Notes: generated from the sequence alone by a model not told the origin. A DNA stretch of 64,000 bases from Chiloscyllium plagiosum (GCF_004010195.1 NC_057718.1:55150196-55214195), one strand, 5' to 3'. Numbered from the stretch's first letter, positions 14,158 through 59,010 are shown. Numbers and translations: made by a program.

Positions 14158-14331
14158 GTTTTATGATATAATTATTGGAATGCTTTATTATGCTAATTGT
14201 GCTACTTAAATATAAGTTACTGTTGTTGTGGCATACTGAGATTTGTTTTATGATATAATTATTGGAATGCTTTATTATGCTAATTGTGCTACTTAAATAT
14301 AAGTTACTGTTGTTGTGGCATACTGAGATTT
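14158..14331. repeat. Perfect 87-bp tandem duplication
   Basis: 14158-14244 identical to 14245-14331. Confidence 0.95.
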
Positions 14332-15039
14332 GTACAGGAATAGAGGAATATTGGAAATCATAACCTCAGATCCCTGAAGATATTATGTCAGTTTATTTGT
14401 TTTGATACTTTCCTTTATTGGTAGAGGCATAGAATGTCATTGCAGTAAGGTTCTGTTAGAATTGTACAAAATACTTTTTAGGTCACAGTGAGATTAATGC
14501 ATACAGTTGTTACAGGAAGGATGTAACTGAGCTAGAGAAGCTACAATAGAGATTTACAAAGTTGTTGCCAGAAATGGAGAATTTTAGGTTTGTGGAAAGA
14601 TTAGTTATGTTAGGGCTATTTTCTTTGGAACAGAAAAGGCTGACGATTGGGCTATGTAAAATAATAAAAGGCATACAATGAATAGATACAAAATATTTCC
14701 CTTAGTAGATAAGTCAATAGCCTGAAGGCATAAATTTAAAGTATTTGGCAGTAAAATTATAAGGGAGCTGAGGAGAATCTTTTCACCCAGAGTGTGATGG
14801 GATCTGATGTGAGCTGCCTGAAAGGATGGGGCAGACCGAAATTCTCACTGCATTTAAAAAAATACTTGGATATATGCTTTAAGTGTCGTAATCTACAGAA
14901 ATGAAAAACAGAATTAGGCAGGAACCCTTTATTTAGCTAGCAAAGAGACAATGGGCCAAATGACCCCCTTCTGTCCCATTCATTTTCTCTACAGCACGTA
15001 TTCAAATAATGGTTCACCTTAAGTAAAAGTCAAATCCCA

Positions 15040-17431: not shown

Positions 17432-17640
17432 GCACGGTGGCACAGTGGTTAGCACTGCTGCCTCACAGCGCCTGAGTCCCGGGTTCAATTCCCGCCTCAG
17501 GCGACTGACTGTGTGGAGTTTGCACGTTCTCCCCGTGTCTGCGTGGGTTTCCTCCCACAGTCCAAAGATGTGCAGGTNNNNNNNNNNNNNNNNNNNNNNN
17601 NNNNNNNNNNNNNNNNTGTAATGTAATCTAATCTAATCTA
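17432..17640 (+). mobile_element. Young HE1-like V-SINE containing an assembly gap
   Basis: A-box tggcacagtgg, B-box ggttcaattcc, V-domain, (aatct)n tail, aactc on both flanks; N-run inside. Confidence 0.92.
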
Positions 17641-29199: not shown

Positions 29200-29398
29200 G
29201 AGAAAGTGAGGTCTGCAGATGCTGGAGATCAAAGTTGAAACTTTATTGCTGGAACAGCACAGCAGGTCAGGCAGCATCCAGGGAACAGGAGATTCGACGT
29301 TTCGGGCACAGGCCCTTCTTCAGGCCCGAAACGTCGAATCTCCTGTTCCCTGGATGCTGCCTGACCTGCTGTGCTGTTCCAGCAATAAAGTTTCAACT
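29200..29398. mobile_element. Fold-back PLE insertion with perfect 75-bp inverted repeat
   Basis: Arms 29233-29307 and 29324-29398; 15-bp TSD ctccagggaaaatag at 29185-29199 and 29397-29411. Confidence 0.95.
29291..29324 (-). ncRNA. Minimal type I hammerhead ribozyme core (PLE-borne)
   Basis: Minus strand: CUGAAGA-A-GGGC-CUGU-GCCC-GAAAC-GUC-GAAUC; intact core, stem II, palindromic ACGU stem III. Confidence 0.75.
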
Positions 29399-50179: not shown

Positions 50180-50917
50180 TAAGTTTGCTTGCTGAGCTGG
50201 AAGGTTCATTATCAGACGTTTCATCACCATACTAGGTATCATCATTAGTGAGCCTCCGGTGAAGCACTTGGTCGTATGGCCCGCTTTTTATTTGTATTTA
50301 GGTTTCCTTGGGTTGGTGATGTCATTTCCTGTTCTTTTTCACAGGGGGTAGTAAATGAGATCCAAGTCCATGTGTTTGTTGATAGAGTTCTGGTTGGAAT
50401 TCCATGCTTGTAGGAATTCTCATGTGTGTCTCTGTTTGGCTTGCCCTAGTATGGATATGTTGTCCCAGTCGAAGTGGTGTCCTTCCTCATCTGTATGTAA
50501 AGATACTAGTAAGAGTGGGTCATGTCTGTTTGTGGCTAGATGAGGAAGGACACCATTTCGATTGGGACGACATATTCATTCTAGGACAAGCCAAACTGAG
50601 ACACGTGCAAAAATTCCTAGAAGCATGGCACTCTAACCAGAACTCTTATCAACAAAGACATTGACTTGGATTCCATTTACAACCCCCTGAGAAAAAGAAC
50701 AGGAAATGACATCACCACAGAAAATGACATCATGAACCCAAGGAAATCTAAACACACAAATAAAAAGCTGGTCATACCACCAGTGTTTCACTGGAGGCTC
50801 CGTGATTATGACACCTAGTATGGTGATGAAACGTCTGAAAACAAACTTTCTAGCTCAGCAAGCAAACTTAGCTCAGGTTGAAGTTTTGGATCTACAAATC
50901 TTCCCAAAACCTGCTAA
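50180..50917. mobile_element. Penelope-like element, family 3, as a long inverted repeat
   Basis: DEEGHHFDWDDIFILGQAK...FLEAWHS (GIY-YIG C-terminus); arms ~50180-50492 and ~50538-50870; decayed hammerhead (...GAAACGTC) in both arms. Confidence 0.88.
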
Positions 50918-54889: not shown

Positions 54890-54960
54890 CTTTTGACTTA
54901 GATTTTATTGTCACATGTAGAGGAATACAGTGAAAAGTGTACAAAATTGCCATTCTACAT
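54890..54960 (-). mobile_element. LINE/SINE 3' tail (Rex1/Babar-like)
   Basis: Minus strand ttttcactgtattcctctacatgtgacaataaaatctaa. Confidence 0.5.
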
Positions 54961-55189
54961 TGCTACAAAATACAAAACAATAATTTAAAAAAATAAATTA
55001 AAGCAGAACCAAAAGATAAATGTCCAGATTTTAAAGTCCTTATTCAAAAGAAAAGGAGGAAGTCCAGATTTTCAGTTCTTATCTTCCGGGGCCTAGCCCT
55101 GGCCTGGTGTTTTGGTCAGCAATTGCCTTTGCTTCTGCTGATGCTACCAACGATTGCTGGAACAAGCCCGTCTTGTTTCCCCAACACCC

Positions 55190-56558
55190 CAGGACAACAG
55201 CAATTAGTTCGGCCTACCCGCATTTCGGCTTCCCTAACCGCCCTTTGCACCTTTTAGCTGACTTCTAGGACAGCCTGCTCCGGTACCTGCCCAGGGTGAC
55301 AGTGCTGAGGACGGTCTACCCGCCTTCTGGCTCTCGCCCACCCTGATGTACCATCTGGCCTGTGGACTGCCCTGACATACCTTCCGACCGCCTCTAGGAC
55401 AGCTTGTCCTGATTACCCCTTCTCAGGACAACAGTGCTCAGAAAGCCTACCCACTTGTCTCTCAGGACGATCAGCATCGGGGTCGCCTACTACCCTCTAG
55501 CTTTCCGGGCAGCCTACCCACTTTCAGGTTCACAGGACGACCTGCCCACCCTCCACCCCTCAGGGTGACAGCTTTCAGGATGACCTATGAGCCTCCCAGC
55601 TCACAGTAAGGCCTACCAGACCCAGGGACACAAGACAGTGCAGGTGTTAAACCCAACAAGCAAAAAGACAGAGTCCATTATCAACAAACAGAGTCCCTTC
55701 TAATACAGAATTCATTACCCTAAACACTTTTCTTCAAAATGTAGAGTCCATTCCCAGGAACAGAGTCCACTCCAATATACAAAGTGCATTGTCAGAAATA
55801 GAGTCCACTCCAAACTGCAGAGTCCACGACCAAGGGCAACAAATGCATACCCCACAGCGCCCACACAGGTGTTCAGTCTCCATAGAGGCCTGGTTTATCC
55901 ATAGAGAACCAGGCTCACTCCCAGGAACACAGCACGTTTTAAAAGTACAGCTAACTCAGACGGGTTTGGCTCACTCCCAAAGGCAGAGTCCACTCCACTC
56001 CAGGATGCTGCAAATGCTCACTTCCCAGCACACAATGTTCAATCTTTACAGAGGCTTAGTCCACCAACAAGGGGCAGACCTACCCACAGGAACAGCTCAT
56101 CTGGAGAGATGTACTTTCTCACAAGGGCTCAGTCCAAACACCAAAAAAGTGAAAACACATTCAAAAAAACCAAAGAAAACCAGACTACAAGTGCTAAGCC
56201 CGGCCACAAAATCAATGTAGTCCTTTTCTCAAAATAAGAAAGAGTGACACACAGCTGTAGCCAGCCAGTGAAACAATGGTTCCCTAATGAGAACTGAGTT
56301 ACACTTGAAACACATTGACTGTTAGATCAGGCAGTTTAGAAATCAGTCCTCAATAAAAAAGGAATATCACTTAACAAAACTGGTGTTGTAAACCAGCCAG
56401 TTTAAGAATCGGGTTTCCCCCAAAATTCACAAAAACTAACAGTAGCAGTACACACCTGATGTGGGCAGCCAGCTCAGAGTCAGTCCACTTCCTGACATAA
56501 ATGGAGAGTCCTTGACAGTGCCCCAGCTCCCTCAGAGCCAGCTCTCATGGCAACATTC
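55190..56558 (-). mobile_element. Non-coding retro-element copy A (internal GC-rich and gagtccac(t) repeats)
   Basis: Collinear, diverged homology to 56840-58060. Confidence 0.7.
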
Positions 56559-58048
56559 CTTTTTTTTAATTTTATTACAAAATTACAAAACAGTTTACAA
56601 AAAGGAAAATTTAACATTTACAGCTATATACTAAAGCAATTTTACAAGGGAGAGGAGCAGCAAAGCCAGGCCCCAAACCCTACCGTTCAACCGGTTTACA
56701 GAGAGATGAGGACAAACCTCAAATCCCAGTTCCACATATGAAAAGACAGTGACAATGACATTTGTACATGAGACAATACAGATCCAGCAAGCCCCTGTCC
56801 CTCCCACCTTCCGGCCACTGTAAGGCAGCCCTCCCCTACACACCTTCCGGCTCTCAGTCCAACCCCTGCCCCTTCCAGTTCTCGATCTGCCCTGACACAC
56901 CTTTCAACCACCTCTAGGACAGCCCCTAGATTACCCCTTCTCGGGACGACAGCACTCAGTGCGGCCTTCCCACCATCTGGCTCTCAGGGCGACTGGCATC
57001 AGGGTGGCCTACCCACCCTCTGGCTTTCGGGACAGCCTACCAACCTTCAGGTTCACAGGATGGCCTACCCACCCTCCAGCTTTCAGGACAACTCATGAGC
57101 CTCACAGCTCACAGTAAGGCCTGCCGGACTCAGGGACACACAAGACAGTGCAGGTGATAGACCCAATAAACAACACAATACAGTTAATTACCGAAAAAGT
57201 CCTTTCTGGTACCGGTCCAAATAGAGTCTTCAAAATATAGAGTCCATTCCCAGGAATGGAGTCCACTTCAGTTTTTGAGGTGCATGGTCCAAAACGGAGT
57301 CCACTCCAAACTGCGGAGTCCACTCCAAACCAGAGTCCACGCCTGAAGGCAGCAAATGCACACCGCTGAGCACACAGATGTTCAGTCTCCATGGATTCCT
57401 GGCCCAGCCTTGGAAAATCAGGCCCACTCACAGGAACATAGTACATTGTACAGGTGCAGTTAACTCACAGGGATTTGATCCACTCCTGAAGGCAAGGCCT
57501 TCGCCCAAACTCCAGGATACAGCAAGTGCTCACCTCCCAGCACACACAGGTGTTCAATCTTCGGATGCCCAGTCCCAGGGCTAGACCTCCCCACAGGAAC
57601 AGCTCCTCTGGTAAAATGTATGTCTTCCACAAGGGCTCAGTCCAAACACCAATAAAAAGTGAAGACACATACAAAAAACAAAGAAAACTAGAATCCAAGG
57701 GCTAAGCCCTACAACAATATTAACATTATCCTTTTCTCAAAAAGAGTGAAAAGAGTAACACACAGGCTGTAACCAGCCAGTGAAACAATAATCCCCTAAT
57801 GAGAACTGAGTTACACCTAAAACACATTCTGTGCATCAGGAGTTTAACAATCAGTCCTCACAAAAAGGAATGCCAGTTCGCAAACTGGCTAATTAGTTCA
57901 GCCAGTTCAGGAATCCGGTTTCCCCCTCCCAAAAAAAAAGGAAGCAGAAACTAACAGTAACACACTGACTATAACACCAGCCAGCACAGAGTCAGTCCCC
58001 TTCCTGACACAAATGGAGAGTCTTTGATAGTGCCCCAGCTCTCATGGC
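56559..58048 (-). mobile_element. Non-coding retro-element copy B, polyadenylated
   Basis: Minus-strand AATAAA (56571-56576) and A-tract (56560-56567) abut the head of copy A. Confidence 0.75.
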
Positions 58049-58063
58049 GACATTCCTGTTCTT

Positions 58064-58436
58064 TTTTTTTAAACCCCCACTTATTTTTTCTCCCAGCACC
58101 CATGTGTGTGTGCAGGTGTGGGACACAGTGAAGACATTCCTGTTCTTTTTTTCAGGTGTGAGACACAAGGTGTACGAATCTTTATTCAATTTCCACCACC
58201 AGGAAGAAAGGAAACACCCGAGTAGCCAGTGACAAGCAGTGCCCTTCACAAAAAAGGGCAATGCTGTGTGATCAAACAGTGAAGGGGAGGGCAGGGACTA
58301 AATCAAAATAGAGTTGGAGGGGGAAATAATGCATTTCACTCCCTGCGGCACCCACCTTTCCCTGAACAACTCCAGGGTGTTTGTGGACACCGCATGCTCC
58401 TTCTCCAAGGATACCTGGGCCCTAACGTAACCGCGG
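58064..58436 (-). mobile_element. Tx1/L1-clade LINE 3' end
   Basis: Minus strand RGYVRAQVSLEKEHAVSTNTLELFRERWVPQG; A-tail; gacattcctgttctt at 58049, 58133 and 58437. Confidence 0.8.
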
Positions 58437-58544
58437 GACATTCCTGTTCTTCTCTGTCTGCCTGGGATCCCTGTTTGGGGCTGTTAATCTGATCCAATCA
58501 GGGAACTCATATAATATGAGATCCACCTGGCTGACGACATTACA
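58437..58544 (-). mobile_element. LTR-like 5' segment
   Basis: Minus strand begins TGTAATGTCGTCAGCCAGGTGG, contains an ATTGG (CCAAT) box, and continues into the head of copy B once the Tx1 insert is removed. Confidence 0.55.
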
Positions 58545-58549
58545 ATCAC

Positions 58550-59010
58550 TGAGGAGGCAGTCCAGCAAAGGATCATAGGCTAATCCGGAATATGGAGGGA
58601 CTGTCTTATGAGAAAAGATTGAGGAAGTCGGGCCTGTACTCGTAAGAGTTTAATAAAATGAGAGGTGACCTTATTGAAAAATACATGATTCTTAGGTGCT
58701 TGACAGGATGGACGTGGAAAGATCATTTCCCCTTGTAGAAGATGGGACCAGACGGCATAATCACAAATAAGGGTAATTCATTTAAGACTGCTAGGAGGAG
58801 GACTTTCTTGTCTCCGAAGGTGGTGAATCTATGGATTTCTTTTTTACTGCAACTTGCTGTAGAGGCTGGGTTATTTAGCATATTCAGTTTGAGATAGACG
58901 CATTTCTAATCAGCAAGGGAATCAATGGTTATGAAGAAAAACCAACAAACTGGAGTTGAGGATTATCAGATTAGTCACAATGGGCTAAATGAGTCTTGTA
59001 CCCAATCTTG
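58550..59010 (+). mobile_element. CR1 3' fragment
   Basis: MEGLSYEKRLRKSGLYS...MRGDLIEKYMIL. Confidence 0.82.

What the first reader, a model, noticed from the sequence alone, without database searches (positions are those of the whole stretch)
55190..58544. Self-targeting stack: LTR-headed, polyadenylated non-coding elements in head-to-tail tandem
Seen on the minus strand: an LTR-like start (58544), the site aagaacaggaatgtc, ~1.5-kb non-coding copy B ending AATAAA plus A-tract, and then directly ggaatgttgccatgagagctgg, the same head sequence, starting diverged copy A. The copies are clearly diverged and differ at their 3' ends, which argues against a recent segmental duplication. A Tx1-type LINE sits at the same site in front of B. 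Known: many Tx1-clade LINEs are target-sequence specific. Inference: a non-autonomous element carries its own target site at its 5' end, so each insertion regenerates the target and builds arrays downstream of an LTR-like promoter. I do not recognise this family.
Basis: partly seen in the sequence, partly recalled or inferred. Interest (0 to 1): 0.7.

Follow-up and report, generated by a model that had tools for sequence, protein, structure and literature searches.

The report
LTR-headed passenger retroposon at LINE target
Two old copies of an abundant, apparently undescribed non-coding jumping element, which begins with a piece of another element's terminal repeat, sit stacked with two LINE fragments at one short insertion site in a shark-type genome; the stack is real, but it follows a known pattern and the claim that the element targets itself is not shown.

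Summary
The stack is real. On the minus strand: the left part of an LTR, three identical 15-nt sites around two L1/Tx1-type LINE 3' ends, copy B (1.5 kb), a decayed fourth site (12/15), then copy A. A and B are 74% alike and non-coding. Contigs from two DNA runs cover them at about 50-2,000 times single-copy depth, so they belong to a dispersed family, not a local duplication.

Their shared head is LTR sequence, from just after the site to just before the LTR's AATAAA. Best reading: an old non-autonomous retroposon whose RNA starts in the LTR, pasted by the LTR-targeting LINE. The sites are target-site duplications, which is enough to explain the stack. Self-targeting rests on one junction, and that junction shows only single-copy depth. 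No genome was held, so flanks of other copies were not tabulated.

This scan noted the LINE-into-LTR targeting at eight or more other loci of this genome; no listed note describes the A/B family. Crocodilian SINEU with Tx1-Mar is the closest precedent.

The parts
58452..58550 (-). Left part of an abundant LTR-type repeat, up to the target site; the right half is absent from this locus
   Evidence: Bin depth about 3,900-4,800 times single copy; 248 and 261 contigs leave at 58550 into diverse flanks (agreement 0.39, 0.38). Contigs join this part directly to 56547. 'Gypsy' and 'TATA box' labels come from earlier scan notes, not tested here.
58437..58451 (-). Site copy 1, AAGAACAGGAATGTC (target-site duplication)
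58148..58436 (-). T1: 5'-truncated L1/Tx1-type LINE end: last 45 codons of ORF2 (58435-58301), 3' UTR, AATAAA at 58186, five A
   Evidence: phmmer E 2.3e-11 to P0001; cluster relatives carry zf-RVT and RVT_1 below Pfam cut-offs; P0008 matches human LINE-1 ORF2p at E about 1e-6; depth 37,000-50,000 times single copy
58133..58147 (-). Site copy 2, identical
58064..58132 (-). T2: 69-nt extreme 3' end of the same LINE family, with seven A
   Evidence: 83 contigs of X11 leave T1 at 58161 with letters matching T2's start; 2 and 4 contigs join the T2 region (58103) to LTR sequence at 56547
58049..58063 (-). Site copy 3, identical
58014..58048 (-). Head of B: GCCA plus LTR-derived sequence, lacking one 15-nt unit between two GAGCTGG repeats
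   Evidence: alignment A1; LTR origin from loose ends at the aligned A positions
56813..58013 (-). Body of B: non-coding, T-rich 5' part, 17-19-nt GGAGTGGACTC repeats (57340-57245), purine-rich repeats with a 28-nt period (about 57125-56813)
   Evidence: no Pfam, Rfam or tRNA match; depth 113-1,982 times single copy; weak likeness of 57405-57275 to T1's ORF2 end
56567..56812 (-). Tail of B, not shared with A: possible decayed ORF2 end (56812-56751), T-rich stretch, AATAAA at 56576
   Evidence: Bin 56655-56791 is 4.2 and 2.7 times deeper than the median body bin; ORF2-end profile score reached by 1-11 of 300 shuffles, region chosen after seeing the match; no match to T1's 3' UTR
56552..56566 (-). 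Site copy 4, decayed (12/15), overlapping B's A-run
   Evidence: 5 of 63,986 minus-strand positions score exactly 12/15
56502..56551 (-). Head of A: GCCA in place of the LTR's 17-nt spacer, then LTR sequence ending just before the LTR's AATAAA
   Evidence: 202, 158 and 26 contigs leave at 56547 into the usual spacer; 31 contigs of X15 leave at 56502 into the AATAAA-bearing continuation
55200..56501 (-). Body of A: homologous to B down to 55367, with more purine-rich repeat units beyond
   Evidence: depth 48-1,161 times single copy
54904..55199 (-). Distal part after A: mostly low copy, T-rich stretch 55003-54962, AATAAA at 54909; no A-tail, site or LTR right half follows. A's true end is uncertain
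   Evidence: bin 55011-55147 is 6-7 times single copy; spanned by single-copy contigs in both DNA runs (records 2 and 9)

Best explanation
A and B are old copies of a dispersed, protein-less retroposon family of about 1.5 kb. Its RNA begins inside an abundant LTR, just downstream of the site that an L1/Tx1-type LINE cuts. The family probably arose when transcription from such an LTR ran into foreign sequence before reaching the LTR's own poly(A) signal. The LINE's enzymes copied this RNA in trans. At this locus B was pasted at the LINE's target site in front of A. Each insertion duplicated about 15 bp of the site, so a usable site survived, and two LINE 3' ends (T1, T2) were added there much later. 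SHOWN: anatomy, LTR origin of the head, multi-copy status, no coding signal, LINE identity of T1. INFERRED: that the sites are target-site duplications, the order of events, mobilisation in trans, the RNA start point, and any family-wide preference for this site.
For: Depth over A and B is 48-1,982 times single copy in two DNA runs of two organisms. At 16 of 21 listed positions with an aligned partner, the majority letter of laid contigs equals the other copy's letter: one family, each copy decayed separately. The head matches the LTR from 56547 to 56502 and leaves it just before AATAAA. All four units start exactly behind the site. Sites 1-3 are identical while site 4 is 12/15, in step with 26% A/B divergence; three copies as old as B would stay identical with chance about 0.003. 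B's tail is 2.7-4.2 times deeper than its body, as 3'-anchored reverse transcription or a tail shared with a LINE would give. No coding signal: 0 of 33 open frames of at least 45 codons hit Pfam (33 of the 41 listed were scanned); no codon periodicity (p 0.69); 8 of 23 gaps are multiples of three. Precedent: SINEU mobilised by Tx1-Mar, often in tandem, one subfamily with a target-derived 5' extension (PMC4494074, sections read).
Against: Only one locus is resolved; flanks of other copies were not seen (no genome; 4,087 loose ends and 1,306 joints not shown). If A is itself an insertion, a site and the LTR right half should follow it; neither does, so a later deletion must be assumed. B's A-run is short and mostly readable as the site. 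B's tail does not match T1's 3' UTR (154 of 200 shuffles reach the score), so no shared partner tail links B to this LINE family. At 2 columns A and B share a letter against the family majority, which a local duplication would also give. Summed contig depth is not a copy number. No transcription data support the start point.
Confidence: 0.5

Rival explanations
1. Self-targeting family: the element's own 5' end includes the target site, so copies insert into earlier copies and build head-to-tail arrays behind an LTR promoter.
For: A and B share GCCA where the usual LTR has a 17-nt spacer, and A is continuous with the LTR's left part once B, T1 and T2 are set aside. One X15 contig of depth 32.2 spans 56552-56553 with two other letters, so a similar head junction exists at another locus. 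No LTR right half follows A.
Against: One junction only. Depth at 56552-56553 is 26.3 in X1 and 15.5/0 in X11, i.e. single copy. T1 and T2 carry no site or head yet stack in the same way. Both used the site nearest the LTR's left part. The shared GCCA could be host sequence inside a 22-29-nt duplication, with B joined through the 7-nt GAGCTGG repeat, which would also explain B's 15-nt gap (inference).
Confidence: 0.17
2. B is an internally deleted or template-switched derivative of a Tx1-type LINE: the body is its 5' or 3' untranslated region, and the tail is the end of ORF2 plus 3' UTR, as in R2 SIDE elements.
For: A frameshift-tolerant ORF2-end profile scores B's tail at 27-30 and ends at the last profile column at 56751, where A/B homology has stopped and depth rises; 1, 3 and 11 of 300 shuffles reach it with three profile lengths. 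B 57405-57275 aligns to T1's ORF2 end with score 50.5, above all 300 shuffles and above the 82 other window tiles, and is the top non-T1 profile peak in the window (43.0).
Against: Both matches were found after the fact. The tail match is exceeded by three unrelated window peaks (32.8, 32.3, 32.2), and BLASTP gives E 0.84. A, clearly homologous at the mid-body match, does not score (92 of 300 shuffles); with all of T1 as query, 8 of 300 shuffles reach B's score. tblastn and hmmsearch find no significant match in A or B.
Confidence: 0.2
3. An ancient local tandem duplication of one family copy (site included), with one 3' end later replaced by a separate LINE tail.
For: Head-to-tail units with a shared head variant; 2 columns shared against the family majority; single-copy junction depth.
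Against: Both continuations are multi-copy: B's tail 3,266-4,110 times, A's extra repeats 39-207 times single copy. A contig of depth 118.6 joins B-like 56898 to A-like 55331, so both forms vary within the family. No site copy lies between B's body and tail (best 10/15, a level reached at 90 window positions).
Confidence: 0.13

Closest known systems
SINEU-1/2/3 mobilised by Tx1-Mar in crocodilians (Kojima 2015, PMC4494074; passages and parts 3-4 of 5 read; supplements not available)
   Same: Non-coding retroposons at the target of a Tx1-clade LINE inside another transposon, often in tandem, with no pol III promoter. SINEU-2B_Crp has a 5' extension weakly similar to the target, and the paper proposes transcription from flanking target sequence.
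   Different: SINEU heads are U1/U2 snRNA, most are under 500 bp, and the target is a Mariner. Here the head is LTR sequence in the target's own orientation, the unit is 1.5 kb, and target preference is shown for one copy only.
Tx1-8_Crp and Tx1-4_AMi (same paper); Tx1L in Tx1D of Xenopus (as cited there)
   Same: Tx1-clade LINEs preferentially inserted into LTR retrotransposons; T1 and T2 fit this pattern.
   Different: Those are autonomous LINE families; A and B are not coding. T1's clade was not placed by RT phylogeny here.
Tandems by double insertion, e.g. Drosophila R1 (McGurk and Barbash 2018, PMC5932611; passages read)
   Same: [quoted passage not shown]
   Different: Here the stack mixes a LINE and a non-coding family of different ages.
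R2 and R2/R1 SIDE elements (PMC3414825; abstract read)
   Same: Non-autonomous, site-specific, using a partner LINE; the parent R2 is co-transcribed with its target.
   Different: SIDEs are a 5' ribozyme plus a LINE 3' end; no ribozyme family matched here and LINE origin of the tail is only weakly supported.
SVA/LAVA composite retroposons (search listing; description in PMC4494074)
   Same: About 1.5-2 kb, non-coding, central variable repeats, L1-clade mobilisation inferred.
   Different: Primate-specific parts; the retroviral part of SVA is at the 3' end (recalled); not site-specific (recalled).
Zepp of Chlorella (recalled; only its citation was seen)
   Different: Autonomous LINE; self-insertion is not shown for the A/B family.

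Membership tests
L1/Tx1-type LINE (T1, T2) | ORF2 C-terminus homologous to L1-clade ORF2 | tested here: met
   45-aa end matches proteins whose relatives carry zf-RVT/RVT_1 (below Pfam cut-offs) and match LINE-1 ORF2p
L1/Tx1-type LINE (T1, T2) | A-rich 3' end with target-site duplication at a fixed site | tested here: met
   three identical 15-mers; T2 region joined to LTR sequence in 2 and 4 contigs
Tx1 clade proper | RT phylogeny places it with Tx1 | not testable with these tools
   no RT in the fragment; the Tx1 label comes from earlier notes and recall
Classical SINE (A, B) | tRNA, 5S or 7SL head with pol III promoter | tested here: not met
   no tRNA gene; only two mir-146 matches at E 0.84 and 4 in Rfam; T-runs of 6-9 inside; head is LTR sequence
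SINEU | U1- or U2-derived head | tested here: not met
SINEU | Family shares the target of a Tx1 partner (over 20% of flanks) | not testable with these tools
   no genome; one copy at the site
Non-autonomous LINE-mobilised retroposon (SVA/Sadhu-like grade) | No coding capacity | tested here: met
Non-autonomous LINE-mobilised retroposon (SVA/Sadhu-like grade) | Dispersed multi-copy family | tested here: met
   (contig depth, not a count of loci)
Non-autonomous LINE-mobilised retroposon (SVA/Sadhu-like grade) | Poly(A) end and target-site duplication | tested here: inconclusive
   B: AATAAA, A8 overlapping a 12/15 site; A: neither tail nor site
Internally deleted LINE (SIDE-like) | 5' and 3' parts derive from one autonomous LINE | tested here: inconclusive
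   weak ORF2-end likeness in B only; no full-length LINE available
Non-autonomous LTR element (TRIM/LARD-like) | Two complete LTRs around the interior | tested here: not met
   head stops before the LTR's AATAAA; no right half or second LTR in the window
Self-inserting retroelement (Zepp-like, recalled) | Most copies lie in or next to earlier copies at a site the element carries | tested here: inconclusive
   one junction; single-copy depth across it

The most novel reading that the evidence does not exclude
A promoter-less retroposon family that lives on another element's promoter. Its head is the transcribed start of the LTR that its partner LINE targets; the LINE pastes it just behind that LTR's TATA-like box, where the head replaces the LTR's spacer, so copies are transcribed only where they land on target. 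That would be a three-way dependence (LTR promoter, LINE enzymes, passenger RNA) at the scale of hundreds to thousands of copies.
Probability: 0.2. Interest if true: 0.65.

Novelty: new variant of a known kind. Interest (0 to 1): 0.37.

Why it matters
How non-autonomous retroposons without an internal promoter get transcribed is left open for SINEU (PMC4494074). A family with a head taken from its target LTR and about a thousand copies would make the borrowed-promoter idea testable by counting flanks and mapping RNA starts. If the family turns out to be scattered at random, this is one more unannotated shark repeat caught at a known LINE hot spot.

Tried and rejected
Genome-wide flank count: no genome held.

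Collection scans: a 24-nt head pattern gave 0 hits in viral and in metagenome contigs. A 16-nt LTR pattern gave 119 metagenome loci; 1 of 119 had a 26-nt BLAST match and none extended further. P0001 found no relative in viral contigs.

Earlier notes by sequence: 0 hits for B, but also 0 for the LINE/LTR part that other notes describe and for relatives, so these blanks say nothing.

Expression: no RNA holder listed. Raw RNA run X22 laid 0 of 8.3 million records, even on the very abundant LINE tail, so it is no test. X15 is only guessed to be RNA; relative to X1 its depth over the A and B body bins is 2.6-17.5 per thousand against 13 for the flank. No claim either way.

Coding: word search with the 45-aa peptide found nothing; Atlas gave no usable hit for it or for A's 189-codon plus-strand frame. 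57450-57700 shows no ORF2 C-terminal signal.

Structure: B's tail folds at z -1.83, 8 of 200 shuffles as good; not taken as a signal.

Literature: nine searches ran; no listing described an LTR-headed shark retroposon. Repbase and Dfam could not be searched, the Tx1L endonuclease paper is not held, and the SINEU supplements, which show Tx1 targets, could not be read. The family may already be catalogued there. PMC3747384, PMC8455134 and PMC6581046 were seen as passages only.

Full report
Setting. The window is 39.5% GC, rich in dispersed repeats, with no frame over 204 codons. The LINE fragment is 85% identical over 27 residues to a stretch of a Chiloscyllium punctatum protein, and earlier notes call this genome shark or ray, so a cartilaginous fish is likely.

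Anatomy, minus strand. LTR left part (about 58550-58452); site 1; T1 (58436-58148); site 2; T2 (58132-58064); site 3; B (58048-56567); site 4; A (56551 to somewhere between 55200 and 54904). Sites 1-3 are the identical 15-mer, found nowhere else in the window. Site 4 matches at 12 of 15.

T1 and T2. T1 holds the last 45 codons of a LINE ORF2: best hit E 2.3e-11; longer relatives carry zf-RVT and RVT_1 below cut-off and match human LINE-1 ORF2p. Contigs leave T1 at 58436 into upstream sequence and at 58161 into letters matching T2, so T2 is the far 3' end of the same family. Two and four contigs join the T2 region to LTR sequence at 56547, so this LINE sits in the LTR at other loci too. Earlier notes of this scan report the same targeting at eight or more loci; one doubts that the LINE is dedicated to the LTR. 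The name Tx1 is taken from those notes and from recall.

A and B are one dispersed family. They are 73.7% identical over 1260 columns. Single-copy contigs have depth 21.8 (X1) and 16.4 (X11). Bins over A's body run 48-1,161 times that, B's body 113-1,982 times, B's tail bin 3,266-4,110 times. The tool warns that summed depth is no copy number; the orders of magnitude still exclude a sequence found only here. Of 917 positions with other letters, 40 were shown; 22 were high-depth rows inside A or B that I checked, 21 with an aligned partner. At 16 of 21 the majority letter equals the other copy's letter; at 2 all three differ; 3 rows (2 columns) have A and B agreeing against the majority. These rows were picked by the tool, not at random. 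A's distal part is spanned by single-copy contigs in both organisms, so A predates their split (records 2 and 9).

They do not code. 0 of 33 scanned frames hit Pfam (33 of 41 listed), mismatches show no codon period (p 0.69), and 8 of 23 gaps keep frame. Rfam and ARAGORN find nothing of note.

The head is LTR sequence. 202, 158 and 26 contigs match A's head and leave it at 56547 into a 17-nt spacer preceded by a near copy of the site; 31 contigs of X15 leave at 56502 into an AATAAA-bearing continuation; other contigs join 56547 to the LTR's left part. So A and B carry the LTR from just after the spacer to just before its poly(A) signal, with GCCA in place of the spacer. If the site lies at the TATA box, as earlier notes say, the spacer ends about where transcription would start, and the head is what a full-length RNA pasted at the site would leave (inference). 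A second reading of the junction is possible: GCCA and the first GAGCTGG belong to a longer duplication of A's head, and B joined through the repeated 7-mer, which would explain B's 15-nt gap in one event.

Mechanism. Target-primed reverse transcription at an A-rich site duplicates the site, so later insertions can use it again; tandems made this way are described for R1 and others (PMC5932611, passages). Here four units each start right behind a site. Identical sites 1-3 against a decayed site 4 put T1 and T2 well after B (chance about 0.003 otherwise). This needs no site carried by the element. For self-targeting one would expect many tail-site-head junctions; depth at 56552-56553 is 26.3 in X1 and 15.5/0 in X11. 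One X15 contig (depth 32.2) does span them with two other letters. Contigs break in repeats, similar heads may have been laid on B, and 4,087 loose ends were not shown, so the test is weak in both directions.

Problems for my reading. Nothing of the LTR follows A, so either a deletion removed it or A is natively fused to the LTR's left part. B's A-run is mostly readable as site 4. B's tail does not match T1's 3' UTR.

Possible LINE ancestry of B. Two stretches resemble the ORF2 end: 56812-56751 (1-11 of 300 shuffles, but below three unrelated window peaks) and 57405-57275 (above 300 of 300 shuffles and 82 other tiles with T1's coding end as query). A does not score at the homologous place, and tblastn and hmmsearch find no significant match. 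I treat this as a lead.

Comparison. The closest precedent is SINEU with Tx1-Mar: shared target inside another transposon, tandem insertion, a target-derived 5' extension, and proposed transcription from the flank (PMC4494074). The same paper names Tx1 families that prefer LTR retrotransposons. A and B fail the SINE and SINEU head tests and are not two-LTR elements. They work most like a long, SVA-grade passenger of an L1-clade LINE. Nine literature searches listed no such shark family; Repbase, Dfam and the SINEU supplements were out of reach.

Verdict. Real feature, new variant of a known kind, interest 0.37. The LINE targeting is known in kind and has been noted repeatedly in this scan. The LTR-headed family is the new part, and its borrowed-promoter reading (probability about 0.2) can be settled by one flank count in the assembly.

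Noticed in passing
window 58480-58494: The loop between the two inverted CCAAT-type arms of this LTR is inverted relative to the usual LTR: 267 and 281 contigs leave at 58494 with the reverse-complement loop, and opposite-strand joints are listed.
   Followed up: partly
window 58148-58160: T1 ends about 50 nt earlier than the family's longer 3' end seen in T2, 33 nt after an AATAAA; two polyadenylation points are possible.
   Followed up: partly
P0005 (XP_072422303.1), residues 130-156: A Chiloscyllium punctatum CutA isoform model contains a stretch 85% identical to this LINE's ORF2 end, between CutA domain parts: exonised LINE or annotation artefact.
   Followed up: no
window 50180-50870: Long fold-back of about 690 nt, arms 84-92% complementary; earlier notes describe Penelope-type fold-backs in this genome.
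   Followed up: no
window 29233-29398: Perfect 75-nt inverted repeat in a short repeat family with about six copies in the window (D2 and I15); resembles the hammerhead-headed mini-elements of earlier notes.
   Followed up: no
window 14158-14333: Perfect tandem duplication of 87 nt; recent or an assembly artefact.
   Followed up: no
window 17578-17616: 39-N gap inside a dispersed repeat copy.
   Followed up: no
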